This document shows, piece after piece, positions 3,135-64,000 of a stretch of DNA of 64,000 nt. Position 1 is the stretch's first letter. Each line of letters starts with the position of its first letter. The position numbers and the translations under genes were made by a program. This DNA is from Naegleria gruberi. Its lineage: Eukaryota. The stretch is from assembly GCA_000004985.1 (NCBI GenBank), contig GG738915.1. One strand, written 5' to 3'. The notes beneath the pieces are model-generated. The model saw only the letters and a program-made list of their open reading frames with translations, made no database searches and was not told the origin of the DNA.

Positions 3135-3236
3135 ATTTATGATTTATATTTAAATAAATTATAATATATTTATTTTGTAATAGTTTTAAATAGGTTTAAT
3201 ATTGCTTTTCGGAAATTTGGAAATATTTAAAAAAAA

Positions 3237-16997: not shown

Positions 16998-18202
16998 ATG
17001 GTGGGATTGAATGGAACGAATACAACTATTGTAGCCGAAACATCTAGGGAAGAGTTTGGACCATTTCAGTACATGATTTTCGGGGTCAATATTCCCTTTC
17101 TGATAATATATTCAATTCTATTTAGTGCTACCTTGATTAGTTTGATATTTAGTGTAAAGAAACAAGATAAGACGAAACGGAAAACCTTCTACATCCTTAT
17201 ACTTGTTCTGTCCTTGCTGTTTGCAGTCATTTTGAATTTACTTACAAGAATTGGTTCCGAACTTTGCTATTTCGAAACTGATCCGGATAGACTTGAACGA
17301 ATATATGGACTGGTAAAGGCTATTGACAGAACCATGATAGGATTTACAATGTCTATGGAACTTTTATTAATTGATTACATGTCTTTTCTATTGTAAGTAC
17401 TTAGAATACTTTCCATTTTATGATGATTAGTTTGGAAACAACTTGGAAAGTGAGCCATTTCATCTAAGCATTTCAAAATTGCTAAGTTTATAACTTTTGG
17501 ATTGGCTTTGGTTGTTTTGATTTGTTTAATGTTTCTTCTGAGTGGATTTTTAGTATTAGGAGGTTTCTTTTACGTTTATGGAAATCTTGGGATATTGAAT
17601 ACGATACTGACTTGTCTATTTACTGCCTCTGCTATATTGGTAGGGGTTGCTTCCAGTATGCTCCTGATAAACACTCATGTAGGTTTCTAATTATTTAAAA
17701 TTTGAACAAAATCAATTAGTATTGTGGGAAATTAATGCTGAAAACACTTGTTAATGGAAGAAAACAAGCCATGACACTTTCCTCATCTCCACCACAATTG
17801 AAAGAAAGTTATGATTTGAAAACAAGAGCCCTCAAGAAAGTGTGGAGTATCATTATTGTAGTTACACTAACTTCTGTTTTTCAGATTATTGGATTTATTT
17901 TCACTCCATTATCAATGGTGGATCATTTTATGATGAGTGGATTTCATATATGTTACAATATATCAATAATGGTCCTTGTAGTTCTGTATTTATATTTATA
18001 TGGACCTGTGAAGGAATTTCAACAATTATTCGAAAAGAGAGATTCAAAAGATTTGACAACCATTGTGACTGCATTCGATTCAACAGGATCTGAACGGATT
18101 CAGAAAGGATTAACCTTATCACATGTTTCGCCTGTGTCTCCTACCGATAGTGAAATAACCTCCAGGCAGGAATTGTTTCAGATAACAAATTCTAGGATAT
18201 AA
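16998..18202 (+). CDS. seven-transmembrane receptor-like (GPCR-like) protein, three exons
   Basis: Exon 1 is 16998-17392, with GTAAGT at 17393. Exon 2 is 17543-17678, with acceptor tttcttctgAG at 17541-42 and donor GTAGGT at 17679. Exon 3 is 17720-18202, with acceptor at 17718-19. Phases are consistent. The joined protein has seven hydrophobic helices, a charged third intracellular loop (KLMLKTLVNGRKQAMTLSSSPPQLKESYDLKTRALKK), and an S/T-rich C-terminal tail. Confidence 0.55.
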
Positions 18203-19004
18203 CAAAATACTTTATTAAGACATGCTGAATAACTTTAAATCTGAATTATTATTAATATTAATATTCAATTCATTATGTTGCATAACAGTACTTTGCAACA
18301 TTATGATGGAAACTTAAGTTGGAGCAGATTACAATAGTGGAATGATAAGACAAGATATCGTACTCAATACGTAAAGCTTCATAAATTAGAAAGGTGAAAA
18401 TAGACTTCAATTCTTCCACTATCCTTCTAATTATCCAATCACGACTTGAAAAAATCAAAAAAATGAAAACACTCATCAAGGTACGATTTTTTCTTTTTCA
18501 AAATGATGATTAAATATTATCTTTATGTCGGAATGGAAAATTCAAACTCTTATTTTCATAATTTTAATGTATTTAATATATTGATAGATTAAATATTTTC
18601 CTCCTGTCATTGTTGTCTTGACAGCAATTTCTCTCCTATTTTGTATAGTTTTGAGCTTGTTAACAGCACCAGATAGTGTTTCTAAACATTTGCCTGCCCT
18701 GAGTGAAACAGGAATATTTCCTCCGACAAAATATATTTTCACAGCATCCCTTGTGATACCATCCATATGTTTAATAGTTGGAGCAATTTTGCAATTTATT
18801 ACAACAAAGGAAAAATTAACCTCATTGGATCATCAACGACACACTTTAAATTATTGTAATGGATGTTTTAGAATGGGATGGTTGAGTATTGCATCCTGTA
18901 TTTTTGCTTTGATTTCAGGATTTTGTTTACTTGGACTTGGAATTGTGCCAATTATGGGAGGAGAAGTTATTGATGATAGTTTACTTTCGAATTCTACTAC
19001 CTCT
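17534..19004. repeat. segmental duplication, copy A (7TM gene exons 2-3, the intergenic spacer, and most of the DRAM-like gene)
   Basis: Near-identical to 33700-35285, which lies at an offset of 16166-16281 nt. There are a few SNPs, including one amino-acid change from K to Q at the start of exon 3. An indel of about 107 nt lies in the spacer between the genes, and an indel of about 12 nt lies in intron 1 of the DRAM-like gene. Confidence 0.85.
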
Positions 19005-19649
19005 ACTACTGTATCTTTTATAACTAGTTCTACTAGTCAACAGTCAGCAGAATCAATTGAAATTCTTCCATATACCATCATTCACTTGATATTTACATTC
19101 TTCTTCATGTCAACTGTGTTTATTCACATGGTACTCAATACCATTTTCAATGTAGTAAGTGCAATTATAGTAATTATTTATTAAGCGGAATGCATCACCA
19201 ATTCATTTAATATCCAGTTATATGATAAGAAAATTTCTCCAAAAAAGAAAATTCTCAATCCTTGGGTTATTGTAAAAATTGTCAGTTCATGCTCATTCTT
19301 GGTTGTGGGGCCAATCTTTAGTTTTATTATGGGAATTTTAGTTACAGTCACATGTTCTCAAACTGAGGTTATTAACAAGACTTGTCCACTCATGAATTTA
19401 TTCCAATTATTCCTTGGAGCTCTATCTCAATACAGTATTGTTGCCTCAATTTTAGTTTTCATGCTCACTTACATGTATGATTTCAAAGATGCATCCATCA
19501 GTATTAATGCTGAAGATCCAAGAAATGATATTCAAGAGAGGTTATCAGGACTTTCCTTAGAAAAGGATTTTGAATTGGAAGAGGACGATCTTGGAGCAGG
19601 AGACACCAACAGATTACACACTCTTGAGGATGAAGACGAATTTAATTAA
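18463..19649 (+). CDS. Frag1/DRAM/Sfk1-family-like six-TM membrane protein with an acidic C-terminal tail, three exons
   Basis: A tiny first exon, ATG AAA ACA CTC ATC AAG (18463-18480), is followed by GTACGA. Exon 2 is 18588-19154, with acceptor gatAG at 18586-87 and donor GTAAGT at 19155. Exon 3 is 19218-19649, with acceptor atccAG at 19216-17. The N-terminal motif HLPALSETGIFPPTKYIF resembles the DRAM/Frag1 signature (P.ISDTG..PP...IF). About six TM helices are predicted. The C-terminus is EEDDLGAGDTNRLHTLEDEDEFN. Confidence 0.5.
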
Positions 19650-25415: not shown

Positions 25416-25434
25416 TGTTGTTTTTTTCAATGGG

Positions 25435-25588
25435 NNNNNNNNNNNNNNNNNNNNNNNNNNNNNNNNNNNNNNNNNNNNNNNNNNNNNNNNNNNNNNNNNN
25501 NNNNNNNNNNNNNNNNNNNNNNNNNNNNNNNNNNNNNNNNNNNNNNNNNNNNNNNNNNNNNNNNNNNNNNNNNNNNNNNNNNNNNNNN
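25435..25588. other. assembly gap (154 N)
   Basis: Run of N characters. Confidence 0.99.
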
Positions 25589-28517: not shown

Positions 28518-28564
28518 TTTTTAAAAAAAACACCAACTCCACAACAAGTGACACTTTCACCATA

Positions 28565-31956: not shown

Positions 31957-33649
31957 ATGAGGAATTTTCGACAATACAAATCATCGACTGTACAGGTATC
32001 TCCACGAAATGGTGGGTACGTTCATCATCCTCATCCTCCATCAACAGTGAAACATTCAGCTGCTGATGGAATGAATGCATCTCCCAACAAGGGAGAGAAA
32101 AAGACATTTTCTGAAACAATGAGTGACAACTCTTCACAGCCCAACACTAGTGCTGTTGAACCATTGTGGCTGTATGGATATGCATACTTTTCATTGGATA
32201 AAACTATATGGGGATTGTTATTGGATTTGGAGAAAAAGTTTGATGCTGGTCAAATTGACAAGATTCAATCACTTCCTTCACCTTCATCCTCTCTTAATAG
32301 TGGTACTTTCACTTTTCAACCTCCAAAACCAAGTGTGAGGATAAAACAATTGAAACCAACAAATATTGAGCTTCTGAATCAATCATTTATGGATTATTCT
32401 AATGCCAACTTTAAAGAGTGTTTGAAGAATATTCAAATTTTGATAGAACGAAAGATTTCCATGTTTACCGACACAACAGAGGACAGATATGAACTGAATT
32501 TATCTTTATCTCTATTTTCAATTATCATTCTGAATTATTCAACTGTTTTGTCAACTCAATACCAGAGCTTTCACAACAGCATGGAACTATTGAAAGTTGG
32601 AGAAATGATGCTGAAACACTTCAAGAGCGACCAATTGAAAGATTATTTCACATCTCTATTCAGCAGTGCCATGTGTAATTATTACAAAAAAAGAAAAAAA
32701 TATAACATGATGTACAAATATTCCAAACAAGCCTATGAAATGTACAGTCAAACAGGAACAAGCATTTATGCTCAATATATTTTGCAAACGTATGCCACTA
32801 GTTGTCTCTTTCGCAAGAAGTATGAGGAAGCAATTGAGTGCTTTGAAAATAACATTTTTTTGTACAAAAACCAAATTCCAAGCACTTCTGTACAAACAAG
32901 CTTGCTAGATTATTTCAATAGAATTTTGACATTCATTTGCGACAATGAGTATTTCATAATTATTAATAAGTGCTTTAATACCTTCAATTATGGTGTGGCA
33001 CTATTTGAGACGAAACAGATGGTTCCTAGTCGATACTACCTCTTTCAAGCTATTGATATAATGAATCACCACCTCAGTTCCCACCACGATATAATTATAG
33101 AGAAACGATGGCTCAAGTCCATGATTAAGGTGTATAGAATTGTGACCTCTATTTGTGAAAACCAACCATACAATGATTGCAACATTTCCATGCATGCAAT
33201 TTTTAATAAGGGAAAACCAATGGTGGATCCACTCGAGCCAGCATTTAAAAACGAAAGGTACTATATTACCACACTGAACAAGGCAATACACTATGTCATT
33301 CTAGAAAATGAAAGACAAGAAGTTATGGCAAGAGCAGAGATTGACGCCGAGGAATATAGGAGAGTGAAGAAACTGGTTAGCATACTCCCCCTTTTGAAAG
33401 TGGATCCATATTTTGGTAAAATTATGAGCATTGAAAAATCAGTTAAGGAGAAGAAACAAACCATTCCACAGGCCATGTCCTTTGCTAAGAAAGCACTCAA
33501 ATCTTCGAAAATATTTCTCACTCCTCTAAAAAGACCTGAAGAAACAACATTGGATGAAAGTAATAATATCCTCAATAATTCATTTCTACTCGATGATTAT
33601 GGATATATTTCAAAGACACCTTCAGAATCACCAAGATCTGCTATCATTA
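31957..33649 (+). CDS. hypothetical protein, possibly alpha-helical and TPR-like; 3' end lost in gap
   Basis: Long ORF starting at the ATG at 31957 and running into the N gap at 33650. The N-terminal region is low-complexity, and the remainder is helical with some repeat character. I recognise no firm domain. Confidence 0.5.
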
Positions 33650-33699
33650 NNNNNNNNNNNNNNNNNNNNNNNNNNNNNNNNNNNNNNNNNNNNNNNNNN
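33650..33699. other. assembly gap (50 N), adjacent to the segmental duplication boundary
   Basis: Run of N characters. Confidence 0.99.
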
Positions 33700-33708
33700 T
33701 CTTCTGAG

Positions 33709-34368
33709 TGGATTTTTAGTATTAGGAGGTTTCTTTTACGTTTATGGAAATCTTGGTATATTGAATACCATACTGACTTGTCTATTTACTGCCTCTGCTA
33801 TATTGGTAGGAGTTGCTTCCAGTATGCTCCTGATAAACACTCATGTAGGTTTCTAATTATTTAAAATTTGAACAAAATCAATTAGTATTGTGGGAAATTA
33901 ATGCTGCAAACACTTGTTAATGGAAGAAAACAAGCCATGACACTTTCCTCATCTCCACCACAATTGAAAGAAAGTTATGATTTGAAAACAAGAGCCCTCA
34001 AGAAAGTGTGGAGTATCATTATTGTAGTTACACTAACTTCTGTTTTTCAGATTATTGGATTTATTTTCACTCCATTATCAATGGTGGATCATTTTATGAT
34101 GAGTGGATTTCATATATGTTACAATATATCAATAATGGTCCTTGTAGTTCTGTATTTATATTTATATGGACCTGTGAAGGAATTTCAACAATTATTCGAA
34201 AAGAGAGATTCAAAAGATTTGACAACCATTGTGACTGCATTCGATTCAACAGGATCTGAACGGATTCAGAAAGGATTAACCTTATCACATGTTTCGCCTG
34301 TGTCTCCTACCGATAGTGAAATAACCTCCAGACAGGAATTGTTTCAGATAAAAAATTCTAGGATTTAA
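33709..34368 (+). CDS. second copy of the 7TM receptor-like gene, exons 2-3 only (33709-33844 and 33886-34368); exon 1 is absent or in the gap
   Basis: Reading frame and splice sites are conserved with copy A. ORF 33901-34368 differs from 17735-18202 by two substitutions. The 5' exon cannot be seen. Confidence 0.45.
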
Positions 34369-34735
34369 CAAAATACTTTATTAAGACATGTTGAATAACT
34401 TTAAATCTGAATTATTACTAATATTAATATTCAATTCATTATGTTGCATAACAGTACTTTGCAACATTATGATGGAAACTTAAGTTGGAGCAGATTACAA
34501 CAGTGGAATGATAAGACAAGATATCGTACTCAATTGATTTCTTACTAATTACACTAATTGGTAATTATGCTTGATTCCAGTTCTACAGTATTGTATGGAT
34601 TCAAAGATTGTAAAGTTTCATTTCTATTTACTAGTATCAAACAATTAGAAAGTTGAAAATAGACTTTCAATTCTTCCACTATCCTTCTAATTATCCTTTG
34701 AATCACGACTGAAAAAATCAAAAAAATGAAAACAC

Positions 34736-35285
34736 TCATCAAGGTACGATTTTTTCTTGTTCAAAATGATGATTAAATATTATCTTTGTGTCGGAATGGA
34801 AAATTCAACTCTTATTTTCATAATTTTAATGTATTATCATGTATTTAATATATTGATAGATTAAATATTTTCCTCCTGTCATTGTTGTCTTGACAGCAAT
34901 TTCTCTCCTATTTTGTATAGTTTTGAGCTTGTTAACAGCACCAGATAGTGTTTCTAAACATTTGCCTGCCCTGAGTGAAACAGGAATATTTCCTCCTACA
35001 AAATATATTTTCACAGCATCCCTTGTGATACCATCCATATGTTTAATAGTTGGAGCAATTTTGCAATTTATTACAACAAAGGAAAAATTAACCTCATTGG
35101 ATCATCAACGACACACTTTAAATTATTGTAATGGATGTTTTAGAATGGGATGGTTGAGTATTGCATCCTGTATTTTTGCTTTGATTTCAGGATTTTGTTT
35201 ACTTGGACTTGGAATTGTGCCAATTATGGGAGGAGAAGTTATTGATGATAGTTTACTTTCGAATTCTACTACCTCTACTACTGTA
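34736..35285 (+). CDS. second copy of the Frag1/DRAM-like gene, partial: exon 1 at 34736-34753 and exon 2 from 34869, running into the gap
   Basis: The same MKTLIK mini-exon, GTACGA donor and gatAG acceptor as copy A are present. The intron carries an insertion of about 12 nt, and the coding sequence is nearly identical. Confidence 0.4.
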
Positions 35286-38200
35286 NNNNNNNNNNNNNNN
35301 NNNNNNNNNNNNNNNNNNNNNNNNNNNNNNNNNNNNNNNNNNNNNNNNNNNNNNNNNNNNNNNNNNNNNNNNNNNNNNNNNNNNNNNNNNNNNNNNNNNN
35401 NNNNNNNNNNNNNNNNNNNNNNNNNNNNNNNNNNNNNNNNNNNNNNNNNNNNNNNNNNNNNNNNNNNNNNNNNNNNNNNNNNNNNNNNNNNNNNNNNNNN
35501 NNNNNNNNNNNNNNNNNNNNNNNNNNNNNNNNNNNNNNNNNNNNNNNNNNNNNNNNNNNNNNNNNNNNNNNNNNNNNNNNNNNNNNNNNNNNNNNNNNNN
35601 NNNNNNNNNNNNNNNNNNNNNNNNNNNNNNNNNNNNNNNNNNNNNNNNNNNNNNNNNNNNNNNNNNNNNNNNNNNNNNNNNNNNNNNNNNNNNNNNNNNN
35701 NNNNNNNNNNNNNNNNNNNNNNNNNNNNNNNNNNNNNNNNNNNNNNNNNNNNNNNNNNNNNNNNNNNNNNNNNNNNNNNNNNNNNNNNNNNNNNNNNNNN
35801 NNNNNNNNNNNNNNNNNNNNNNNNNNNNNNNNNNNNNNNNNNNNNNNNNNNNNNNNNNNNNNNNNNNNNNNNNNNNNNNNNNNNNNNNNNNNNNNNNNNN
35901 NNNNNNNNNNNNNNNNNNNNNNNNNNNNNNNNNNNNNNNNNNNNNNNNNNNNNNNNNNNNNNNNNNNNNNNNNNNNNNNNNNNNNNNNNNNNNNNNNNNN
36001 NNNNNNNNNNNNNNNNNNNNNNNNNNNNNNNNNNNNNNNNNNNNNNNNNNNNNNNNNNNNNNNNNNNNNNNNNNNNNNNNNNNNNNNNNNNNNNNNNNNN
36101 NNNNNNNNNNNNNNNNNNNNNNNNNNNNNNNNNNNNNNNNNNNNNNNNNNNNNNNNNNNNNNNNNNNNNNNNNNNNNNNNNNNNNNNNNNNNNNNNNNNN
36201 NNNNNNNNNNNNNNNNNNNNNNNNNNNNNNNNNNNNNNNNNNNNNNNNNNNNNNNNNNNNNNNNNNNNNNNNNNNNNNNNNNNNNNNNNNNNNNNNNNNN
36301 NNNNNNNNNNNNNNNNNNNNNNNNNNNNNNNNNNNNNNNNNNNNNNNNNNNNNNNNNNNNNNNNNNNNNNNNNNNNNNNNNNNNNNNNNNNNNNNNNNNN
36401 NNNNNNNNNNNNNNNNNNNNNNNNNNNNNNNNNNNNNNNNNNNNNNNNNNNNNNNNNNNNNNNNNNNNNNNNNNNNNNNNNNNNNNNNNNNNNNNNNNNN
36501 NNNNNNNNNNNNNNNNNNNNNNNNNNNNNNNNNNNNNNNNNNNNNNNNNNNNNNNNNNNNNNNNNNNNNNNNNNNNNNNNNNNNNNNNNNNNNNNNNNNN
36601 NNNNNNNNNNNNNNNNNNNNNNNNNNNNNNNNNNNNNNNNNNNNNNNNNNNNNNNNNNNNNNNNNNNNNNNNNNNNNNNNNNNNNNNNNNNNNNNNNNNN
36701 NNNNNNNNNNNNNNNNNNNNNNNNNNNNNNNNNNNNNNNNNNNNNNNNNNNNNNNNNNNNNNNNNNNNNNNNNNNNNNNNNNNNNNNNNNNNNNNNNNNN
36801 NNNNNNNNNNNNNNNNNNNNNNNNNNNNNNNNNNNNNNNNNNNNNNNNNNNNNNNNNNNNNNNNNNNNNNNNNNNNNNNNNNNNNNNNNNNNNNNNNNNN
36901 NNNNNNNNNNNNNNNNNNNNNNNNNNNNNNNNNNNNNNNNNNNNNNNNNNNNNNNNNNNNNNNNNNNNNNNNNNNNNNNNNNNNNNNNNNNNNNNNNNNN
37001 NNNNNNNNNNNNNNNNNNNNNNNNNNNNNNNNNNNNNNNNNNNNNNNNNNNNNNNNNNNNNNNNNNNNNNNNNNNNNNNNNNNNNNNNNNNNNNNNNNNN
37101 NNNNNNNNNNNNNNNNNNNNNNNNNNNNNNNNNNNNNNNNNNNNNNNNNNNNNNNNNNNNNNNNNNNNNNNNNNNNNNNNNNNNNNNNNNNNNNNNNNNN
37201 NNNNNNNNNNNNNNNNNNNNNNNNNNNNNNNNNNNNNNNNNNNNNNNNNNNNNNNNNNNNNNNNNNNNNNNNNNNNNNNNNNNNNNNNNNNNNNNNNNNN
37301 NNNNNNNNNNNNNNNNNNNNNNNNNNNNNNNNNNNNNNNNNNNNNNNNNNNNNNNNNNNNNNNNNNNNNNNNNNNNNNNNNNNNNNNNNNNNNNNNNNNN
37401 NNNNNNNNNNNNNNNNNNNNNNNNNNNNNNNNNNNNNNNNNNNNNNNNNNNNNNNNNNNNNNNNNNNNNNNNNNNNNNNNNNNNNNNNNNNNNNNNNNNN
37501 NNNNNNNNNNNNNNNNNNNNNNNNNNNNNNNNNNNNNNNNNNNNNNNNNNNNNNNNNNNNNNNNNNNNNNNNNNNNNNNNNNNNNNNNNNNNNNNNNNNN
37601 NNNNNNNNNNNNNNNNNNNNNNNNNNNNNNNNNNNNNNNNNNNNNNNNNNNNNNNNNNNNNNNNNNNNNNNNNNNNNNNNNNNNNNNNNNNNNNNNNNNN
37701 NNNNNNNNNNNNNNNNNNNNNNNNNNNNNNNNNNNNNNNNNNNNNNNNNNNNNNNNNNNNNNNNNNNNNNNNNNNNNNNNNNNNNNNNNNNNNNNNNNNN
37801 NNNNNNNNNNNNNNNNNNNNNNNNNNNNNNNNNNNNNNNNNNNNNNNNNNNNNNNNNNNNNNNNNNNNNNNNNNNNNNNNNNNNNNNNNNNNNNNNNNNN
37901 NNNNNNNNNNNNNNNNNNNNNNNNNNNNNNNNNNNNNNNNNNNNNNNNNNNNNNNNNNNNNNNNNNNNNNNNNNNNNNNNNNNNNNNNNNNNNNNNNNNN
38001 NNNNNNNNNNNNNNNNNNNNNNNNNNNNNNNNNNNNNNNNNNNNNNNNNNNNNNNNNNNNNNNNNNNNNNNNNNNNNNNNNNNNNNNNNNNNNNNNNNNN
38101 NNNNNNNNNNNNNNNNNNNNNNNNNNNNNNNNNNNNNNNNNNNNNNNNNNNNNNNNNNNNNNNNNNNNNNNNNNNNNNNNNNNNNNNNNNNNNNNNNNNN

Positions 38201-41200
38201 NNNNNNNNNNNNNNNNNNNNNNNNNNNNNNNNNNNNNNNNNNNNNNNNNNNNNNNNNNNNNNNNNNNNNNNNNNNNNNNNNNNNNNNNNNNNNNNNNNNN
38301 NNNNNNNNNNNNNNNNNNNNNNNNNNNNNNNNNNNNNNNNNNNNNNNNNNNNNNNNNNNNNNNNNNNNNNNNNNNNNNNNNNNNNNNNNNNNNNNNNNNN
38401 NNNNNNNNNNNNNNNNNNNNNNNNNNNNNNNNNNNNNNNNNNNNNNNNNNNNNNNNNNNNNNNNNNNNNNNNNNNNNNNNNNNNNNNNNNNNNNNNNNNN
38501 NNNNNNNNNNNNNNNNNNNNNNNNNNNNNNNNNNNNNNNNNNNNNNNNNNNNNNNNNNNNNNNNNNNNNNNNNNNNNNNNNNNNNNNNNNNNNNNNNNNN
38601 NNNNNNNNNNNNNNNNNNNNNNNNNNNNNNNNNNNNNNNNNNNNNNNNNNNNNNNNNNNNNNNNNNNNNNNNNNNNNNNNNNNNNNNNNNNNNNNNNNNN
38701 NNNNNNNNNNNNNNNNNNNNNNNNNNNNNNNNNNNNNNNNNNNNNNNNNNNNNNNNNNNNNNNNNNNNNNNNNNNNNNNNNNNNNNNNNNNNNNNNNNNN
38801 NNNNNNNNNNNNNNNNNNNNNNNNNNNNNNNNNNNNNNNNNNNNNNNNNNNNNNNNNNNNNNNNNNNNNNNNNNNNNNNNNNNNNNNNNNNNNNNNNNNN
38901 NNNNNNNNNNNNNNNNNNNNNNNNNNNNNNNNNNNNNNNNNNNNNNNNNNNNNNNNNNNNNNNNNNNNNNNNNNNNNNNNNNNNNNNNNNNNNNNNNNNN
39001 NNNNNNNNNNNNNNNNNNNNNNNNNNNNNNNNNNNNNNNNNNNNNNNNNNNNNNNNNNNNNNNNNNNNNNNNNNNNNNNNNNNNNNNNNNNNNNNNNNNN
39101 NNNNNNNNNNNNNNNNNNNNNNNNNNNNNNNNNNNNNNNNNNNNNNNNNNNNNNNNNNNNNNNNNNNNNNNNNNNNNNNNNNNNNNNNNNNNNNNNNNNN
39201 NNNNNNNNNNNNNNNNNNNNNNNNNNNNNNNNNNNNNNNNNNNNNNNNNNNNNNNNNNNNNNNNNNNNNNNNNNNNNNNNNNNNNNNNNNNNNNNNNNNN
39301 NNNNNNNNNNNNNNNNNNNNNNNNNNNNNNNNNNNNNNNNNNNNNNNNNNNNNNNNNNNNNNNNNNNNNNNNNNNNNNNNNNNNNNNNNNNNNNNNNNNN
39401 NNNNNNNNNNNNNNNNNNNNNNNNNNNNNNNNNNNNNNNNNNNNNNNNNNNNNNNNNNNNNNNNNNNNNNNNNNNNNNNNNNNNNNNNNNNNNNNNNNNN
39501 NNNNNNNNNNNNNNNNNNNNNNNNNNNNNNNNNNNNNNNNNNNNNNNNNNNNNNNNNNNNNNNNNNNNNNNNNNNNNNNNNNNNNNNNNNNNNNNNNNNN
39601 NNNNNNNNNNNNNNNNNNNNNNNNNNNNNNNNNNNNNNNNNNNNNNNNNNNNNNNNNNNNNNNNNNNNNNNNNNNNNNNNNNNNNNNNNNNNNNNNNNNN
39701 NNNNNNNNNNNNNNNNNNNNNNNNNNNNNNNNNNNNNNNNNNNNNNNNNNNNNNNNNNNNNNNNNNNNNNNNNNNNNNNNNNNNNNNNNNNNNNNNNNNN
39801 NNNNNNNNNNNNNNNNNNNNNNNNNNNNNNNNNNNNNNNNNNNNNNNNNNNNNNNNNNNNNNNNNNNNNNNNNNNNNNNNNNNNNNNNNNNNNNNNNNNN
39901 NNNNNNNNNNNNNNNNNNNNNNNNNNNNNNNNNNNNNNNNNNNNNNNNNNNNNNNNNNNNNNNNNNNNNNNNNNNNNNNNNNNNNNNNNNNNNNNNNNNN
40001 NNNNNNNNNNNNNNNNNNNNNNNNNNNNNNNNNNNNNNNNNNNNNNNNNNNNNNNNNNNNNNNNNNNNNNNNNNNNNNNNNNNNNNNNNNNNNNNNNNNN
40101 NNNNNNNNNNNNNNNNNNNNNNNNNNNNNNNNNNNNNNNNNNNNNNNNNNNNNNNNNNNNNNNNNNNNNNNNNNNNNNNNNNNNNNNNNNNNNNNNNNNN
40201 NNNNNNNNNNNNNNNNNNNNNNNNNNNNNNNNNNNNNNNNNNNNNNNNNNNNNNNNNNNNNNNNNNNNNNNNNNNNNNNNNNNNNNNNNNNNNNNNNNNN
40301 NNNNNNNNNNNNNNNNNNNNNNNNNNNNNNNNNNNNNNNNNNNNNNNNNNNNNNNNNNNNNNNNNNNNNNNNNNNNNNNNNNNNNNNNNNNNNNNNNNNN
40401 NNNNNNNNNNNNNNNNNNNNNNNNNNNNNNNNNNNNNNNNNNNNNNNNNNNNNNNNNNNNNNNNNNNNNNNNNNNNNNNNNNNNNNNNNNNNNNNNNNNN
40501 NNNNNNNNNNNNNNNNNNNNNNNNNNNNNNNNNNNNNNNNNNNNNNNNNNNNNNNNNNNNNNNNNNNNNNNNNNNNNNNNNNNNNNNNNNNNNNNNNNNN
40601 NNNNNNNNNNNNNNNNNNNNNNNNNNNNNNNNNNNNNNNNNNNNNNNNNNNNNNNNNNNNNNNNNNNNNNNNNNNNNNNNNNNNNNNNNNNNNNNNNNNN
40701 NNNNNNNNNNNNNNNNNNNNNNNNNNNNNNNNNNNNNNNNNNNNNNNNNNNNNNNNNNNNNNNNNNNNNNNNNNNNNNNNNNNNNNNNNNNNNNNNNNNN
40801 NNNNNNNNNNNNNNNNNNNNNNNNNNNNNNNNNNNNNNNNNNNNNNNNNNNNNNNNNNNNNNNNNNNNNNNNNNNNNNNNNNNNNNNNNNNNNNNNNNNN
40901 NNNNNNNNNNNNNNNNNNNNNNNNNNNNNNNNNNNNNNNNNNNNNNNNNNNNNNNNNNNNNNNNNNNNNNNNNNNNNNNNNNNNNNNNNNNNNNNNNNNN
41001 NNNNNNNNNNNNNNNNNNNNNNNNNNNNNNNNNNNNNNNNNNNNNNNNNNNNNNNNNNNNNNNNNNNNNNNNNNNNNNNNNNNNNNNNNNNNNNNNNNNN
41101 NNNNNNNNNNNNNNNNNNNNNNNNNNNNNNNNNNNNNNNNNNNNNNNNNNNNNNNNNNNNNNNNNNNNNNNNNNNNNNNNNNNNNNNNNNNNNNNNNNNN

Positions 41201-44200
41201 NNNNNNNNNNNNNNNNNNNNNNNNNNNNNNNNNNNNNNNNNNNNNNNNNNNNNNNNNNNNNNNNNNNNNNNNNNNNNNNNNNNNNNNNNNNNNNNNNNNN
41301 NNNNNNNNNNNNNNNNNNNNNNNNNNNNNNNNNNNNNNNNNNNNNNNNNNNNNNNNNNNNNNNNNNNNNNNNNNNNNNNNNNNNNNNNNNNNNNNNNNNN
41401 NNNNNNNNNNNNNNNNNNNNNNNNNNNNNNNNNNNNNNNNNNNNNNNNNNNNNNNNNNNNNNNNNNNNNNNNNNNNNNNNNNNNNNNNNNNNNNNNNNNN
41501 NNNNNNNNNNNNNNNNNNNNNNNNNNNNNNNNNNNNNNNNNNNNNNNNNNNNNNNNNNNNNNNNNNNNNNNNNNNNNNNNNNNNNNNNNNNNNNNNNNNN
41601 NNNNNNNNNNNNNNNNNNNNNNNNNNNNNNNNNNNNNNNNNNNNNNNNNNNNNNNNNNNNNNNNNNNNNNNNNNNNNNNNNNNNNNNNNNNNNNNNNNNN
41701 NNNNNNNNNNNNNNNNNNNNNNNNNNNNNNNNNNNNNNNNNNNNNNNNNNNNNNNNNNNNNNNNNNNNNNNNNNNNNNNNNNNNNNNNNNNNNNNNNNNN
41801 NNNNNNNNNNNNNNNNNNNNNNNNNNNNNNNNNNNNNNNNNNNNNNNNNNNNNNNNNNNNNNNNNNNNNNNNNNNNNNNNNNNNNNNNNNNNNNNNNNNN
41901 NNNNNNNNNNNNNNNNNNNNNNNNNNNNNNNNNNNNNNNNNNNNNNNNNNNNNNNNNNNNNNNNNNNNNNNNNNNNNNNNNNNNNNNNNNNNNNNNNNNN
42001 NNNNNNNNNNNNNNNNNNNNNNNNNNNNNNNNNNNNNNNNNNNNNNNNNNNNNNNNNNNNNNNNNNNNNNNNNNNNNNNNNNNNNNNNNNNNNNNNNNNN
42101 NNNNNNNNNNNNNNNNNNNNNNNNNNNNNNNNNNNNNNNNNNNNNNNNNNNNNNNNNNNNNNNNNNNNNNNNNNNNNNNNNNNNNNNNNNNNNNNNNNNN
42201 NNNNNNNNNNNNNNNNNNNNNNNNNNNNNNNNNNNNNNNNNNNNNNNNNNNNNNNNNNNNNNNNNNNNNNNNNNNNNNNNNNNNNNNNNNNNNNNNNNNN
42301 NNNNNNNNNNNNNNNNNNNNNNNNNNNNNNNNNNNNNNNNNNNNNNNNNNNNNNNNNNNNNNNNNNNNNNNNNNNNNNNNNNNNNNNNNNNNNNNNNNNN
42401 NNNNNNNNNNNNNNNNNNNNNNNNNNNNNNNNNNNNNNNNNNNNNNNNNNNNNNNNNNNNNNNNNNNNNNNNNNNNNNNNNNNNNNNNNNNNNNNNNNNN
42501 NNNNNNNNNNNNNNNNNNNNNNNNNNNNNNNNNNNNNNNNNNNNNNNNNNNNNNNNNNNNNNNNNNNNNNNNNNNNNNNNNNNNNNNNNNNNNNNNNNNN
42601 NNNNNNNNNNNNNNNNNNNNNNNNNNNNNNNNNNNNNNNNNNNNNNNNNNNNNNNNNNNNNNNNNNNNNNNNNNNNNNNNNNNNNNNNNNNNNNNNNNNN
42701 NNNNNNNNNNNNNNNNNNNNNNNNNNNNNNNNNNNNNNNNNNNNNNNNNNNNNNNNNNNNNNNNNNNNNNNNNNNNNNNNNNNNNNNNNNNNNNNNNNNN
42801 NNNNNNNNNNNNNNNNNNNNNNNNNNNNNNNNNNNNNNNNNNNNNNNNNNNNNNNNNNNNNNNNNNNNNNNNNNNNNNNNNNNNNNNNNNNNNNNNNNNN
42901 NNNNNNNNNNNNNNNNNNNNNNNNNNNNNNNNNNNNNNNNNNNNNNNNNNNNNNNNNNNNNNNNNNNNNNNNNNNNNNNNNNNNNNNNNNNNNNNNNNNN
43001 NNNNNNNNNNNNNNNNNNNNNNNNNNNNNNNNNNNNNNNNNNNNNNNNNNNNNNNNNNNNNNNNNNNNNNNNNNNNNNNNNNNNNNNNNNNNNNNNNNNN
43101 NNNNNNNNNNNNNNNNNNNNNNNNNNNNNNNNNNNNNNNNNNNNNNNNNNNNNNNNNNNNNNNNNNNNNNNNNNNNNNNNNNNNNNNNNNNNNNNNNNNN
43201 NNNNNNNNNNNNNNNNNNNNNNNNNNNNNNNNNNNNNNNNNNNNNNNNNNNNNNNNNNNNNNNNNNNNNNNNNNNNNNNNNNNNNNNNNNNNNNNNNNNN
43301 NNNNNNNNNNNNNNNNNNNNNNNNNNNNNNNNNNNNNNNNNNNNNNNNNNNNNNNNNNNNNNNNNNNNNNNNNNNNNNNNNNNNNNNNNNNNNNNNNNNN
43401 NNNNNNNNNNNNNNNNNNNNNNNNNNNNNNNNNNNNNNNNNNNNNNNNNNNNNNNNNNNNNNNNNNNNNNNNNNNNNNNNNNNNNNNNNNNNNNNNNNNN
43501 NNNNNNNNNNNNNNNNNNNNNNNNNNNNNNNNNNNNNNNNNNNNNNNNNNNNNNNNNNNNNNNNNNNNNNNNNNNNNNNNNNNNNNNNNNNNNNNNNNNN
43601 NNNNNNNNNNNNNNNNNNNNNNNNNNNNNNNNNNNNNNNNNNNNNNNNNNNNNNNNNNNNNNNNNNNNNNNNNNNNNNNNNNNNNNNNNNNNNNNNNNNN
43701 NNNNNNNNNNNNNNNNNNNNNNNNNNNNNNNNNNNNNNNNNNNNNNNNNNNNNNNNNNNNNNNNNNNNNNNNNNNNNNNNNNNNNNNNNNNNNNNNNNNN
43801 NNNNNNNNNNNNNNNNNNNNNNNNNNNNNNNNNNNNNNNNNNNNNNNNNNNNNNNNNNNNNNNNNNNNNNNNNNNNNNNNNNNNNNNNNNNNNNNNNNNN
43901 NNNNNNNNNNNNNNNNNNNNNNNNNNNNNNNNNNNNNNNNNNNNNNNNNNNNNNNNNNNNNNNNNNNNNNNNNNNNNNNNNNNNNNNNNNNNNNNNNNNN
44001 NNNNNNNNNNNNNNNNNNNNNNNNNNNNNNNNNNNNNNNNNNNNNNNNNNNNNNNNNNNNNNNNNNNNNNNNNNNNNNNNNNNNNNNNNNNNNNNNNNNN
44101 NNNNNNNNNNNNNNNNNNNNNNNNNNNNNNNNNNNNNNNNNNNNNNNNNNNNNNNNNNNNNNNNNNNNNNNNNNNNNNNNNNNNNNNNNNNNNNNNNNNN

Positions 44201-47200
44201 NNNNNNNNNNNNNNNNNNNNNNNNNNNNNNNNNNNNNNNNNNNNNNNNNNNNNNNNNNNNNNNNNNNNNNNNNNNNNNNNNNNNNNNNNNNNNNNNNNNN
44301 NNNNNNNNNNNNNNNNNNNNNNNNNNNNNNNNNNNNNNNNNNNNNNNNNNNNNNNNNNNNNNNNNNNNNNNNNNNNNNNNNNNNNNNNNNNNNNNNNNNN
44401 NNNNNNNNNNNNNNNNNNNNNNNNNNNNNNNNNNNNNNNNNNNNNNNNNNNNNNNNNNNNNNNNNNNNNNNNNNNNNNNNNNNNNNNNNNNNNNNNNNNN
44501 NNNNNNNNNNNNNNNNNNNNNNNNNNNNNNNNNNNNNNNNNNNNNNNNNNNNNNNNNNNNNNNNNNNNNNNNNNNNNNNNNNNNNNNNNNNNNNNNNNNN
44601 NNNNNNNNNNNNNNNNNNNNNNNNNNNNNNNNNNNNNNNNNNNNNNNNNNNNNNNNNNNNNNNNNNNNNNNNNNNNNNNNNNNNNNNNNNNNNNNNNNNN
44701 NNNNNNNNNNNNNNNNNNNNNNNNNNNNNNNNNNNNNNNNNNNNNNNNNNNNNNNNNNNNNNNNNNNNNNNNNNNNNNNNNNNNNNNNNNNNNNNNNNNN
44801 NNNNNNNNNNNNNNNNNNNNNNNNNNNNNNNNNNNNNNNNNNNNNNNNNNNNNNNNNNNNNNNNNNNNNNNNNNNNNNNNNNNNNNNNNNNNNNNNNNNN
44901 NNNNNNNNNNNNNNNNNNNNNNNNNNNNNNNNNNNNNNNNNNNNNNNNNNNNNNNNNNNNNNNNNNNNNNNNNNNNNNNNNNNNNNNNNNNNNNNNNNNN
45001 NNNNNNNNNNNNNNNNNNNNNNNNNNNNNNNNNNNNNNNNNNNNNNNNNNNNNNNNNNNNNNNNNNNNNNNNNNNNNNNNNNNNNNNNNNNNNNNNNNNN
45101 NNNNNNNNNNNNNNNNNNNNNNNNNNNNNNNNNNNNNNNNNNNNNNNNNNNNNNNNNNNNNNNNNNNNNNNNNNNNNNNNNNNNNNNNNNNNNNNNNNNN
45201 NNNNNNNNNNNNNNNNNNNNNNNNNNNNNNNNNNNNNNNNNNNNNNNNNNNNNNNNNNNNNNNNNNNNNNNNNNNNNNNNNNNNNNNNNNNNNNNNNNNN
45301 NNNNNNNNNNNNNNNNNNNNNNNNNNNNNNNNNNNNNNNNNNNNNNNNNNNNNNNNNNNNNNNNNNNNNNNNNNNNNNNNNNNNNNNNNNNNNNNNNNNN
45401 NNNNNNNNNNNNNNNNNNNNNNNNNNNNNNNNNNNNNNNNNNNNNNNNNNNNNNNNNNNNNNNNNNNNNNNNNNNNNNNNNNNNNNNNNNNNNNNNNNNN
45501 NNNNNNNNNNNNNNNNNNNNNNNNNNNNNNNNNNNNNNNNNNNNNNNNNNNNNNNNNNNNNNNNNNNNNNNNNNNNNNNNNNNNNNNNNNNNNNNNNNNN
45601 NNNNNNNNNNNNNNNNNNNNNNNNNNNNNNNNNNNNNNNNNNNNNNNNNNNNNNNNNNNNNNNNNNNNNNNNNNNNNNNNNNNNNNNNNNNNNNNNNNNN
45701 NNNNNNNNNNNNNNNNNNNNNNNNNNNNNNNNNNNNNNNNNNNNNNNNNNNNNNNNNNNNNNNNNNNNNNNNNNNNNNNNNNNNNNNNNNNNNNNNNNNN
45801 NNNNNNNNNNNNNNNNNNNNNNNNNNNNNNNNNNNNNNNNNNNNNNNNNNNNNNNNNNNNNNNNNNNNNNNNNNNNNNNNNNNNNNNNNNNNNNNNNNNN
45901 NNNNNNNNNNNNNNNNNNNNNNNNNNNNNNNNNNNNNNNNNNNNNNNNNNNNNNNNNNNNNNNNNNNNNNNNNNNNNNNNNNNNNNNNNNNNNNNNNNNN
46001 NNNNNNNNNNNNNNNNNNNNNNNNNNNNNNNNNNNNNNNNNNNNNNNNNNNNNNNNNNNNNNNNNNNNNNNNNNNNNNNNNNNNNNNNNNNNNNNNNNNN
46101 NNNNNNNNNNNNNNNNNNNNNNNNNNNNNNNNNNNNNNNNNNNNNNNNNNNNNNNNNNNNNNNNNNNNNNNNNNNNNNNNNNNNNNNNNNNNNNNNNNNN
46201 NNNNNNNNNNNNNNNNNNNNNNNNNNNNNNNNNNNNNNNNNNNNNNNNNNNNNNNNNNNNNNNNNNNNNNNNNNNNNNNNNNNNNNNNNNNNNNNNNNNN
46301 NNNNNNNNNNNNNNNNNNNNNNNNNNNNNNNNNNNNNNNNNNNNNNNNNNNNNNNNNNNNNNNNNNNNNNNNNNNNNNNNNNNNNNNNNNNNNNNNNNNN
46401 NNNNNNNNNNNNNNNNNNNNNNNNNNNNNNNNNNNNNNNNNNNNNNNNNNNNNNNNNNNNNNNNNNNNNNNNNNNNNNNNNNNNNNNNNNNNNNNNNNNN
46501 NNNNNNNNNNNNNNNNNNNNNNNNNNNNNNNNNNNNNNNNNNNNNNNNNNNNNNNNNNNNNNNNNNNNNNNNNNNNNNNNNNNNNNNNNNNNNNNNNNNN
46601 NNNNNNNNNNNNNNNNNNNNNNNNNNNNNNNNNNNNNNNNNNNNNNNNNNNNNNNNNNNNNNNNNNNNNNNNNNNNNNNNNNNNNNNNNNNNNNNNNNNN
46701 NNNNNNNNNNNNNNNNNNNNNNNNNNNNNNNNNNNNNNNNNNNNNNNNNNNNNNNNNNNNNNNNNNNNNNNNNNNNNNNNNNNNNNNNNNNNNNNNNNNN
46801 NNNNNNNNNNNNNNNNNNNNNNNNNNNNNNNNNNNNNNNNNNNNNNNNNNNNNNNNNNNNNNNNNNNNNNNNNNNNNNNNNNNNNNNNNNNNNNNNNNNN
46901 NNNNNNNNNNNNNNNNNNNNNNNNNNNNNNNNNNNNNNNNNNNNNNNNNNNNNNNNNNNNNNNNNNNNNNNNNNNNNNNNNNNNNNNNNNNNNNNNNNNN
47001 NNNNNNNNNNNNNNNNNNNNNNNNNNNNNNNNNNNNNNNNNNNNNNNNNNNNNNNNNNNNNNNNNNNNNNNNNNNNNNNNNNNNNNNNNNNNNNNNNNNN
47101 NNNNNNNNNNNNNNNNNNNNNNNNNNNNNNNNNNNNNNNNNNNNNNNNNNNNNNNNNNNNNNNNNNNNNNNNNNNNNNNNNNNNNNNNNNNNNNNNNNNN

Positions 47201-62200: not shown

Positions 62201-64000
62201 NNNNNNNNNNNNNNNNNNNNNNNNNNNNNNNNNNNNNNNNNNNNNNNNNNNNNNNNNNNNNNNNNNNNNNNNNNNNNNNNNNNNNNNNNNNNNNNNNNNN
62301 NNNNNNNNNNNNNNNNNNNNNNNNNNNNNNNNNNNNNNNNNNNNNNNNNNNNNNNNNNNNNNNNNNNNNNNNNNNNNNNNNNNNNNNNNNNNNNNNNNNN
62401 NNNNNNNNNNNNNNNNNNNNNNNNNNNNNNNNNNNNNNNNNNNNNNNNNNNNNNNNNNNNNNNNNNNNNNNNNNNNNNNNNNNNNNNNNNNNNNNNNNNN
62501 NNNNNNNNNNNNNNNNNNNNNNNNNNNNNNNNNNNNNNNNNNNNNNNNNNNNNNNNNNNNNNNNNNNNNNNNNNNNNNNNNNNNNNNNNNNNNNNNNNNN
62601 NNNNNNNNNNNNNNNNNNNNNNNNNNNNNNNNNNNNNNNNNNNNNNNNNNNNNNNNNNNNNNNNNNNNNNNNNNNNNNNNNNNNNNNNNNNNNNNNNNNN
62701 NNNNNNNNNNNNNNNNNNNNNNNNNNNNNNNNNNNNNNNNNNNNNNNNNNNNNNNNNNNNNNNNNNNNNNNNNNNNNNNNNNNNNNNNNNNNNNNNNNNN
62801 NNNNNNNNNNNNNNNNNNNNNNNNNNNNNNNNNNNNNNNNNNNNNNNNNNNNNNNNNNNNNNNNNNNNNNNNNNNNNNNNNNNNNNNNNNNNNNNNNNNN
62901 NNNNNNNNNNNNNNNNNNNNNNNNNNNNNNNNNNNNNNNNNNNNNNNNNNNNNNNNNNNNNNNNNNNNNNNNNNNNNNNNNNNNNNNNNNNNNNNNNNNN
63001 NNNNNNNNNNNNNNNNNNNNNNNNNNNNNNNNNNNNNNNNNNNNNNNNNNNNNNNNNNNNNNNNNNNNNNNNNNNNNNNNNNNNNNNNNNNNNNNNNNNN
63101 NNNNNNNNNNNNNNNNNNNNNNNNNNNNNNNNNNNNNNNNNNNNNNNNNNNNNNNNNNNNNNNNNNNNNNNNNNNNNNNNNNNNNNNNNNNNNNNNNNNN
63201 NNNNNNNNNNNNNNNNNNNNNNNNNNNNNNNNNNNNNNNNNNNNNNNNNNNNNNNNNNNNNNNNNNNNNNNNNNNNNNNNNNNNNNNNNNNNNNNNNNNN
63301 NNNNNNNNNNNNNNNNNNNNNNNNNNNNNNNNNNNNNNNNNNNNNNNNNNNNNNNNNNNNNNNNNNNNNNNNNNNNNNNNNNNNNNNNNNNNNNNNNNNN
63401 NNNNNNNNNNNNNNNNNNNNNNNNNNNNNNNNNNNNNNNNNNNNNNNNNNNNNNNNNNNNNNNNNNNNNNNNNNNNNNNNNNNNNNNNNNNNNNNNNNNN
63501 NNNNNNNNNNNNNNNNNNNNNNNNNNNNNNNNNNNNNNNNNNNNNNNNNNNNNNNNNNNNNNNNNNNNNNNNNNNNNNNNNNNNNNNNNNNNNNNNNNNN
63601 NNNNNNNNNNNNNNNNNNNNNNNNNNNNNNNNNNNNNNNNNNNNNNNNNNNNNNNNNNNNNNNNNNNNNNNNNNNNNNNNNNNNNNNNNNNNNNNNNNNN
63701 NNNNNNNNNNNNNNNNNNNNNNNNNNNNNNNNNNNNNNNNNNNNNNNNNNNNNNNNNNNNNNNNNNNNNNNNNNNNNNNNNNNNNNNNNNNNNNNNNNNN
63801 NNNNNNNNNNNNNNNNNNNNNNNNNNNNNNNNNNNNNNNNNNNNNNNNNNNNNNNNNNNNNNNNNNNNNNNNNNNNNNNNNNNNNNNNNNNNNNNNNNNN
63901 NNNNNNNNNNNNNNNNNNNNNNNNNNNNNNNNNNNNNNNNNNNNNNNNNNNNNNNNNNNNNNNNNNNNNNNNNNNNNNNNNNNNNNNNNNNNNNNNNNNN
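35286..64000. other. assembly gap (28,715 N); no sequence information
   Basis: Continuous run of N characters. Confidence 0.99.

What the first reader, a model, noticed from the sequence alone, without database searches (positions are those of the whole stretch)
17534..19004. Diverged segmental duplication of a 7TM-receptor + DRAM-like gene cassette, 16 kb apart, with the second copy flanked by gaps
About 1.5 kb is repeated at 33700-35285. There are scattered SNPs, a 107-nt indel in the spacer, and a 12-nt indel inside an intron. Collapsed-read artefacts would be identical, so these differences argue for a real paralogous duplication. Copy B begins exactly at the intron 1 acceptor of the 7TM gene, right after a 50-N gap. 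It follows an unrelated gene (31957-33649) that runs into that gap. Either exon 1 of copy B is hidden in the gap, or copy B is a 5'-truncated gene fragment fused near another gene.
Basis: seen in the sequence. Interest (0 to 1): 0.5.

Follow-up and report, generated by a model that had tools for sequence, protein, structure and literature searches.

The report
Near-identical 1.5-kb repeat, probably unmerged allele
A 1.6-kb island of sequence in the draft Naegleria gruberi genome repeats, with about 1% difference, a stretch 16 kb upstream; the differences are real biological variation, but the island is joined to nothing by sequence, so it is more likely the cell's second allele left unmerged by the assembler than a true gene duplication.

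Summary
The repeat is real. Window 33700-35285 (copy B, 1,586 bp) matches 17534-19013 (copy A) with 18 substitutions and 7 indels. The window comes from a 260-kb scaffold of Naegleria gruberi NEG-M.

Copy B is a complete small contig. It lies between a 50-N gap and a 28.7-kb run of N, so no sequenced junction ties it to a second locus.

B does not begin at an intron acceptor. It starts 47 nt inside exon 3 of a 4-exon 7TM gene and stops in the middle of exon 2 of a Frag1/DRAM-family gene.

The differences are not consensus errors. Six of 8 coding changes are synonymous (P=0.003), and every indel is non-coding. That pattern fits two alleles as well as two paralogues.

The gene that runs into the 50-N gap has a twin on another scaffold, identical at 561 of 564 residues and 168 codons longer. 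The join in front of B is therefore unreliable.

Best reading (about 0.55): B is the alternative haplotype of A, kept apart by an indel cluster and dropped into the nearest large gap. Main rival (about 0.33): a real tandem duplication of about 16-17 kb whose junction lies in the gap. Read depth or PCR would decide. Interest is low.

The parts
17534..19013 (+). Copy A of the repeat. It lies inside a long contig, with unique sequence on both sides.
   Evidence: BLASTN and MAFFT against 33700-35285
33700..35285 (+). Copy B: a complete 1,586-bp contig between two N runs. It differs from A by 18 SNPs and 7 indels.
16998..18202 (+). 7TM gene, copy A. Exons are 16998-17392, 17431-17449 (a 19-nt micro-exon), 17487-17678 and 17720-18202, giving 362 aa. 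Introns are 38, 37 and 41 nt.
   Evidence: The splice model gives one open frame. There are 6 strong and 1 weak hydrophobic segments. A full-length alignment to heterolobosean homologues covers the micro-exon motif FLETT. Contig L005 from another strain carries a 2-nt indel only in intron 2.
18463..19649 (+). Frag1/DRAM/Sfk1-family gene, copy A. Exons are 18463-18480, 18588-19154 and 19218-19649, giving 338 aa.
   Evidence: Pfam PF10277 scores 55 bits against a cut-off of 30.3. The protein is 51% identical end to end to N. lovaniensis P0001.
33700..34368 (+). Copy B of the 3' part of the 7TM gene: the last 145 nt of exon 3 (33700-33844), intron 3, and exon 4 (33886-34368). The frame is intact, with 2 amino-acid changes (K210Q, T358K).
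34535..34642 (+). A 108-nt segment in the intergenic spacer of B, replacing 15 nt of A (18369-18383). It is the largest difference and lies near the middle of contig B.
34726..35285 (+). Copy B of the 5' part of the DRAM-like gene: exon 1 (34726-34743), intron 1 (116 nt, against 107 nt in A), and the first 426 nt of exon 2. Its 148 encoded residues are identical to A.
33650..33699 (.). The 50-N gap joining contig B to the preceding contig. Both flanks are mid-exon in unrelated genes.
31957..33649 (+). The first 564 codons of an IQ-motif protein gene, open at the contig end. A twin on a 469-kb scaffold (EFC44793, 732 aa) is identical at 561 of 564 residues.
35286..64000 (.). A run of 28,715 N reaching the end of the window. 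It is either a large captured gap or padding beyond the end of the scaffold.
   Evidence: scaffold length 260,018 bp

Best explanation
Copy B is probably not a second locus. It is probably the other allele (alternative haplotype) of the 7TM/DRAM-like region at 17534-19013 in heterozygous diploid Naegleria gruberi NEG-M.

Proposed mechanism. Reads from the second haplotype that cross the cluster of non-coding indels (108 versus 15 nt, then 4, 10 and several 1-nt indels) could not be overlapped with contig A, so they formed their own 1.6-kb contig. That contig reaches no more than about one Sanger read length to either side of the indel cluster. Second-haplotype reads outside the cluster differ only by sparse SNPs and were merged into A. 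The scaffolder knew from mate pairs that the small contig belongs to this scaffold and in this orientation. With no room at its true position, it placed the contig at the left edge of the nearest large gap with a minimal 50-N spacer.

What is shown: the repeat; its limits coinciding with contig ends; the biological nature of the differences; the unreliability of the neighbouring join.

What is inferred: allelic status and the scaffolding history.
For: 1. B is an entire contig bounded by N on both sides. No base of sequence joins it to unique DNA, and the 200 nt before the gap resemble nothing upstream of A.

2. B is roughly centred on the indel cluster. It extends 835 nt to the left of the 108-nt segment and 447-643 nt to the right. 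It starts 57 nt before its first SNP and ends 288 nt after its last. These limits look set by reads and variants, not by gene structure. Both ends are mid-exon.

3. The differences carry the mark of purifying selection on both sequences. Six of 8 coding changes are synonymous (P=0.003 against random change). SNP density is 0.75% in coding and 2.5% in non-coding DNA (P=0.014). All 7 indels are non-coding and both reading frames are intact. With L005 as outgroup, the A and B lineages carry 2 and 3 derived changes respectively, so B shows no acceleration.

4. The A-B distance (6/659) is half the distance of either copy to an independent N. gruberi-like strain (12-13/659). This is within-population divergence.

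5. The contig before the gap ends mid-exon, 43 nt after its last known difference from a twin gene on another scaffold (561/564 identical, 168 codons longer). This end of the scaffold therefore already holds one unmerged near-identical arm. The non-synonymous divergence of that pair (3/~1300 sites) equals that of A/B (2/~820 sites), as expected if both pairs are alleles. Eight other proteins of the window have no twin at 90% identity or more.

6. Naegleria is described as a mainly heterozygous diploid, and heterozygosity is reported for N. gruberi (PMC9928731).

7. Copy A sits in a long contig among unique genes. A DRAM orthologue lies near adh_short and TPT-transporter genes in N. lovaniensis as well.
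Against: A scaffolder normally needs consistent mate pairs to place a contig. Mates of an allele of A should point to 17.5-19 kb, not 16 kb further right. The placement directly after 33649, in the same orientation, is exactly what the junction of a tandem duplication would look like.

I could not check the assembler's gap conventions. That 50 N is a floor value is an assumption.

The A/B non-coding divergence (2.5% plus dense indels) is high for alleles if genome-wide heterozygosity is well below 1%. I could not retrieve the published figure.

No read data, and neither the 469-kb scaffold nor the rest of this scaffold, could be examined.
Confidence: 0.55

Rival explanations
1. There is a real tandem segmental duplication with a unit of about 16.2-17.5 kb, running from roughly 17.0-17.5 kb to 33.65-34.3 kb of the window. 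The end of copy 1 (inside or just after the IQ gene) is joined to the start of copy 2 (inside or just before the 7TM gene) within the gap. B is the only part of copy 2 that differed enough to assemble separately. The rest of copy 2 collapsed onto copy 1 or lies in the long N run. The complete IQ gene on the 469-kb scaffold is the end of copy 2. The duplication could be heterozygous or recent, for example from unequal exchange between homologues.
For: The layout 33649 | gap | 17534-equivalent on the same strand is the expected junction of a tandem duplication, with offset 16,166 nt. One event would explain several things at once: B; the IQ twin on another scaffold with the same non-synonymous divergence; the failure to join the two scaffolds; and at least 28.7 kb of unassembled sequence after B. 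The scaffolder's placement presumably rests on mate pairs. The other gap in the window is demonstrably underestimated, so the 50-N gap could hide the 1.2 kb or more needed for both boundary genes to be complete.
Against: No junction is sequenced. PIP5K, EFC37750 and EFC37752 lie inside the proposed unit but have no twin at 90% identity or more in the protein set. About 12 kb would then have to be collapsed, even though the indel density seen in A/B non-coding DNA should have split other intergenic stretches too.

If the gap really is about 50 nt, copy 1 of the IQ gene and copy 2 of the 7TM gene are truncated. Yet both show strong constraint: 3 amino-acid changes in 564 residues, a 5:2 ratio of synonymous to non-synonymous changes in the 7TM part, and no rate excess on the B lineage. 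An old duplication with dead fragments is therefore unlikely.
Confidence: 0.33
2. There is a real dispersed duplication: a fragment of 1.6 kb or more of the 7TM/DRAM cassette was copied to another place in the genome, here or on another scaffold, and only loosely or wrongly attached to this scaffold. Alternatively, the link came from chimeric clones.
For: B is a distinct biological sequence. The contig has no sequenced neighbours, so any location is formally possible.
Against: It needs an extra event and also a mis-scaffolding. Identity continues undiminished to both ends of B, so no duplication boundary is visible. Both partial genes remain intact and constrained.
Confidence: 0.07
3. The two copies come from one locus and one haplotype, and the differences are consensus or sequencing errors. 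This is the refutation case the reader named.
For: Three of the seven indels are single bases, which can be read errors.
Against: Six of 8 coding differences are synonymous (P=0.003). Indels of 108, 10 and 4 nt are not read errors. B-type bases at 17645 and 17741 recur in an independent metagenome contig.
Confidence: 0.02

Closest known systems
False segmental duplications from unmerged haplotypes in whole-genome shotgun assemblies. From my own knowledge, this artefact class was described by Kelley and Salzberg, Genome Biology 2010; I did not retrieve the paper here.
   Same: A small contig bounded by gaps, in the same scaffold and orientation as a near-identical copy a short distance away. 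The differences are SNPs plus indels. The organism is heterozygous.
   Different: The copies are 16 kb apart rather than directly flanking one gap. The read-depth and mate-pair signatures that define the artefact could not be examined.
Recent tandem segmental duplication collapsed in a draft assembly
   Same: The end of the unit joins the start of the unit on the same strand. A scaffold break and a large unassembled stretch follow. A near-identical copy of the boundary gene sits on the neighbouring scaffold.
   Different: There is no sequenced junction. Interior genes have no second copy in the gene set. The partial boundary genes show no sign of decay.
Frag1/DRAM/Sfk1 family (Pfam PF10277), which includes damage-regulated autophagy modulator and CWH43/PGAP2-like proteins
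   Same: The downstream gene of the cassette scores above the Pfam cut-off, has six hydrophobic segments, and has clear orthologues in N. lovaniensis, N. fowleri and Willaertia.
   Different: Assignment is at family level only. Nothing shows that it is a DRAM orthologue rather than a CWH43/Frag1-like member, and no function was tested.
G-protein-coupled receptors (7TM receptors)
   Same: The upstream gene has an N-terminus with N-glycosylation sites, seven hydrophobic segments, a long third loop and a Ser/Thr-rich tail. An AlphaFold model of a homologue retrieves only GPCRs as its top 50 PDB matches.
   Different: There is no Pfam or PDB sequence match. The fold matches are weak (E of 4e-3 or worse, TM-score 0.3-0.5). 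The family is confined to Heterolobosea.

Membership tests
Genuine segmental (paralogous) duplication | Each copy is joined by sequence to its own unique flanking DNA, so at least one duplication boundary is visible. | tested here: not met
   Copy B is bounded by N runs on both sides. Identity to A runs to both contig ends. The 200 nt before the gap do not resemble the DNA upstream of A.
Genuine segmental (paralogous) duplication | The copies are distinct biological sequences, not error variants of one sequence. | tested here: met
   Six of 8 coding changes are synonymous (P=0.003). All indels are non-coding. B-type states are shared with an independent strain. Alleles meet this criterion equally.
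Genuine segmental (paralogous) duplication | Read depth is full on each copy, or doubled where the copies are collapsed. | not testable with these tools
   No read data and no other NEG-M assembly are reachable. The N. gruberi genome is not in the contig index.
Unmerged haplotype contig (false duplication) | A small contig bounded by gaps, in the same scaffold and orientation as its near-identical counterpart. | tested here: met
   A 1,586-bp contig lies between a 50-N run and a 28,715-N run, 16.2 kb from A on the same strand.
Unmerged haplotype contig (false duplication) | The organism is heterozygous and the divergence is in the allelic range. | tested here: inconclusive
   Heterozygous diploidy is stated in PMC9928731. 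The A-B distance of 0.9% is half the distance to another strain at 1.8-2.0%. The published NEG-M heterozygosity figure could not be retrieved.
Unmerged haplotype contig (false duplication) | About half the read depth on each copy, and mate pairs compatible with placing B on top of A. | not testable with these tools
   No reads are available.
Frag1/DRAM/Sfk1 family (PF10277) | A Pfam match above the gathering score. | tested here: met
   55.0 bits against a cut-off of 30.3 for the spliced 338-aa protein; 37.9 bits for exon 2 alone.
Frag1/DRAM/Sfk1 family (PF10277) | A multi-pass membrane protein with about six transmembrane segments. | tested here: met
   Six hydrophobic segments by Kyte-Doolittle analysis. 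End-to-end alignment to an orthologue carrying PF10277.
G-protein-coupled receptor | Seven transmembrane helices with an extracellular N-terminus. | tested here: met
   Six strong and one weaker hydrophobic segments, with NGT and NTT sites at the N-terminus. The AlphaFold model of homologue P0027 (pLDDT 79) has seven long membrane-length helices.
G-protein-coupled receptor | Sequence membership of a known GPCR family. | tested here: not met
   No Pfam family at E up to 10 for the protein or up to 0.1 for 8 family members. No PDB sequence hit below E=0.37. One UniRef name for an N. fowleri homologue cites a 'GPCR family 1 profile'.
G-protein-coupled receptor | GPCR fold. | tested here: inconclusive
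   All top 50 Foldseek PDB matches are GPCRs, but E-values are 4e-3 or worse, TM-scores 0.24-0.51 and rmsd 8-15 A. The model is of a 29%-identical homologue, not of this protein.

The most novel reading that the evidence does not exclude
NEG-M carries a real, recent tandem duplication of about 16-17 kb, perhaps heterozygous. It would span the DRAM-like gene, a PIP5K, two F-box/WD genes, a Ykt6-like SNARE gene and others. Its junction would lie in the 50-N gap, and its second copy would be mostly collapsed in the public assembly. About ten genes would then be under-counted, and this scaffold would abut the 469-kb scaffold.
Probability: 0.33. Interest if true: 0.3.

Novelty: not a real feature. 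Interest (0 to 1): 0.15.

Why it matters
The finding matters mainly for the quality of the assembly. If B is an allele, the public N. gruberi reference holds a false duplication here, and this scaffold and a 469-kb scaffold have redundant ends.

If B is a real copy, about 16 kb of the genome is collapsed and the copy number of about ten genes is wrong.

In either case, two apparently real genes are missing from the public protein set: a heterolobosean-specific 7TM protein and a Frag1/DRAM-family protein. No new biological mechanism is implied.

Tried and rejected
1. Exact-protein look-ups of copy-specific ORFs (155 aa from A and from B) in public assemblies found nothing. N. gruberi scaffolds are not in the contig index. 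The 469-kb scaffold and the rest of this scaffold therefore could not be read.

2. Two scans of JGI metagenome contigs with 26-mers from the 7TM and DRAM exons found nothing.

3. The N. gruberi genome paper and a review of it are not held, so the published heterozygosity and the assembler's gap rules could not be checked.

4. The word-indexed protein search found no homologue of the 7TM protein. This was a false negative: the exhaustive search with exon 4 found 25 homologues.

I used exon 4 and a homologue instead.

6. I suspected a transposase in 28.5-31.0 kb as a cause of mis-scaffolding. Pfam gave no support, so I dropped the idea.

7. I found no telomere repeats and no overlap between the flanks of either gap.

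8. It puts all three exon SNPs at non-synonymous positions and gives a non-membrane peptide.

Full report
**Origin of the window.** Eight long ORFs of the window are exact matches to annotated proteins of Naegleria gruberi strain NEG-M (EFC37705, 37707, 37708, 37710, 37748-37750 and 37752). All lie on one scaffold of 260,018 bp. The window has 35,285 real bases at 34% G+C and three N runs: 25435-25588 (154 N), 33650-33699 (50 N) and 35286-64000 (28,715 N).

The last run is either padding or a large captured gap. A 260-kb scaffold needs no padding for a 64-kb window, and the implied offset of 224,733 is not a round number. I therefore lean towards a real gap, but I cannot tell.

**The observation.** The repeat is real. 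Window 33700-35285 (copy B) aligns to 17534-19013 (copy A) on the same strand, 16.2 kb away.
- The first block is 835 bp at 98.8% identity with no indel.
- Then 15 nt in A are replaced by 108 nt in B.
- The second block is about 640 bp at 96.7% identity with small indels.
- In total there are 18 substitutions and 7 indels.
- Nothing else in the window is repeated.

B is the whole of a 1,586-bp contig. Its limits are the two N runs.

**The genes.** I built splice models for copy A.

The upstream gene has four exons (16998-17392, 17431-17449, 17487-17678 and 17720-18202) and three very short introns of 38, 37 and 41 nt. It encodes 362 residues.
- It has six strong and one weaker hydrophobic segment, N-terminal glycosylation sites and a Ser/Thr-rich tail.
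- The word-indexed search found no homologue. An exhaustive HMMER search with exon 4 found 25.
- Named members come from N. fowleri, N. lovaniensis, Willaertia magna and N. gruberi itself.
- A full-length alignment supports the model, including the 19-nt micro-exon (FLETT motif).
- The family has no Pfam or PDB sequence match.
- An AlphaFold model of a 29%-identical member (pLDDT 79) retrieves only GPCRs among its top 50 PDB matches. The matches are weak, with E-values of 4e-3 or worse and TM-scores of 0.24-0.51.
- '7TM, GPCR-like' is therefore fair. 'Receptor' is unproven.

The downstream gene (18463-18480, 18588-19154 and 19218-19649; 338 aa) belongs to the Frag1/DRAM/Sfk1 family. It scores 55 bits against a cut-off of 30.3. 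It aligns end to end at 51% identity with its N. lovaniensis orthologue.

Neither gene has a NEG-M protein in the collections.

**Where B starts and stops.** B starts at the equivalent of 17534, which is 47 nt inside exon 3, in the fourth membrane segment. It stops at the equivalent of 19013, in the middle of exon 2 of the DRAM-like gene.

- In the frame supported by the family alignment all three are synonymous.
- A contig from another strain (L005) is continuous from exon 1 to exon 4 and has its only indel in intron 2.

**Are the differences real?** Yes.
- Eight of the 18 substitutions fall in 1,072 coding nt and ten fall in 408 non-coding nt (Fisher P=0.014).
- Six of the eight coding changes are synonymous, where 23% would be expected from random change (binomial P=0.003).
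- All seven indels are non-coding.
- Both partial reading frames in B are intact, and the 148 DRAM residues are identical.
- L005, a 972-bp contig from an ENA metagenome assembly, carries the B-type base at 17645 and 17741 and the A-type base at 17603, 18166 and 18186.

The 'consensus error' explanation is excluded. The pattern says that both sequences evolved as working genes. It does not say whether they are alleles or paralogues.

**The join in front of B.** The gene at 31957-33649 runs open into the 50-N gap after 564 codons.
- It has a twin, EFC44793 (NAEGRDRAFT_48889, 732 aa with C-terminal IQ motifs), on a different scaffold of 469,335 bp.
- The twin is identical at 561 of 564 residues and continues for 168 more codons.
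- The N. lovaniensis orthologue has no intron there.
- Both flanks of the 50-N gap are therefore mid-exon in unrelated genes, and 50 nt cannot hold the missing 504 nt.
- The contig ends 43 nt after its last known difference from the twin.
- Eight other proteins of the window, three of them between A and B, have no twin at 90% identity or more.

Gap sizes in this scaffold are poor estimates. The 154-N gap interrupts a Ykt6-like SNARE gene that lacks 94 codons, and it also borders the open 5' end of the next ORF.

**Synteny.**
- In N. lovaniensis the DRAM orthologue lies next to a TPT-type transporter and near an adh_short gene. Both of those are also in the left part of this window.
- The Ykt6-like and IQ genes are neighbours on another N. 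lovaniensis contig.
- Window 25.6-33.6 kb is therefore a coherent block, and the window's IQ copy is in its expected context.
- The simplest reading of the IQ twin is that this scaffold and the 469-kb scaffold overlap, with the two versions kept apart by their differences.

**Two models fit.**

Model 1: B is the second allele of A.
- Reads crossing the indel cluster could not merge with A and formed a contig reaching about one read length to each side (835 nt to the left, 447-643 nt to the right).
- Other second-haplotype reads merged into A.
- The scaffolder then parked the small contig at the edge of the nearest large gap.
- Naegleria is described as a heterozygous diploid (PMC9928731).
- The A-B distance (6/659) is half the distance to another strain (12-13/659).
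- The non-synonymous divergence of A/B (2 per ~820 sites) equals that of the IQ pair (3 per ~1300 sites).

Model 2: a real tandem duplication of about 16-17 kb.
- The order 33649 | gap | 17534-equivalent on the same strand is the expected junction.
- One event would also explain the IQ twin and the unassembled stretch after B.

Against model 2:
- No junction is sequenced.
- Interior genes have no second copy in the gene set.
- If the gap is short, the two truncated boundary genes should have decayed. They show strong constraint and no rate excess on the B lineage.

Against model 1:
- Mate pairs of an allele of A should not place it 16 kb away.
- I could not verify that 50 N is a floor value.

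**Verdict.** I put model 1 at about 0.55, the tandem duplication at about 0.33, other real or chimeric placements at about 0.07, and sequencing error at about 0.02.

The finding is an assembly-level ambiguity of a familiar kind. Read depth or two PCRs would settle it. Interest is low whichever way it resolves.

Noticed in passing
window 31957-33649: The first 564 codons of an IQ-motif protein gene end at a contig end. A twin identical at 561 of 564 residues and complete at 732 aa (EFC44793, NAEGRDRAFT_48889) lies on a different NEG-M scaffold of 469,335 bp. The two scaffolds probably overlap, or the region is duplicated.
   Followed up: partly
window 25435-25588 and flanks (24603-25936, - strand): The 154-N gap interrupts a Ykt6-like longin SNARE gene. 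Only residues 1-122 of 216 are present, at 25595-25936. The next - strand ORF (24603-25430) is open at the gap edge. The gap must therefore be well over 285 nt, so gap sizes in this scaffold are underestimates.
   Followed up: yes
window 16998-19649: The 7TM gene and the Frag1/DRAM-family gene have no N. gruberi protein in the public collections. Accession order leaves room for only one + strand gene model (EFC37709) between 10858 and 20313, although four genes lie there: a chromodomain/zf-PARP gene, an alpha/beta hydrolase gene, the 7TM gene and the DRAM-like gene.
   Followed up: partly
window 17393-17719: The 7TM gene has three very short introns (38, 37 and 41 nt) and a 19-nt micro-exon (17431-17449). 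The micro-exon encodes part of a motif (FLETT) that is conserved in the heterolobosean family.
   Followed up: yes
L005:1-972 (ENA ERZ929261 / ERR1078381); also L001 and L002: A sample labelled as a metagenome contains contigs of an N. gruberi-like strain. They are 99.3-99.4% identical to window 3155-4820 and 98.2% identical to the 7TM gene. L005 loses all similarity just before the 7TM stop codon, so the 3' end and spacer vary structurally between strains.
   Followed up: partly
window 28508-31037: A chain of + strand ORFs in shifting frames (461, 136, 111 and 86 aa), rich in Cys and His, with no Pfam match. N. lovaniensis has a PAP2_C gene at the corresponding place between the Ykt6-like and IQ genes. 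It could be a multi-exon lineage-specific gene or a decayed mobile-element gene.
   Followed up: partly
window 1-33649 compared with L003 and L004: Genes that lie on two different N. lovaniensis contigs are interleaved in this N. gruberi window. The order is adh_short, TPT, hydrolase, DRAM, Ykt6, IQ. The TPT-to-DRAM interval is about 90 nt in N. lovaniensis and 8.7 kb with five genes here.
   Followed up: no
window 35286-64000: The 28,715-N run reaches the end of the window. Because the scaffold is 260 kb long, this may be a real captured gap of 28.7 kb or more rather than padding. Unassembled sequence of that size at Sanger coverage would itself suggest collapsed or redundantly assembled DNA.
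   Followed up: no
tool behaviour: The word-indexed protein search returned no hit for the 362-aa 7TM protein. A protein 97% identical over 153 residues (P0016) and 24 more distant homologues exist and were found by the exhaustive search.
   Followed up: yes
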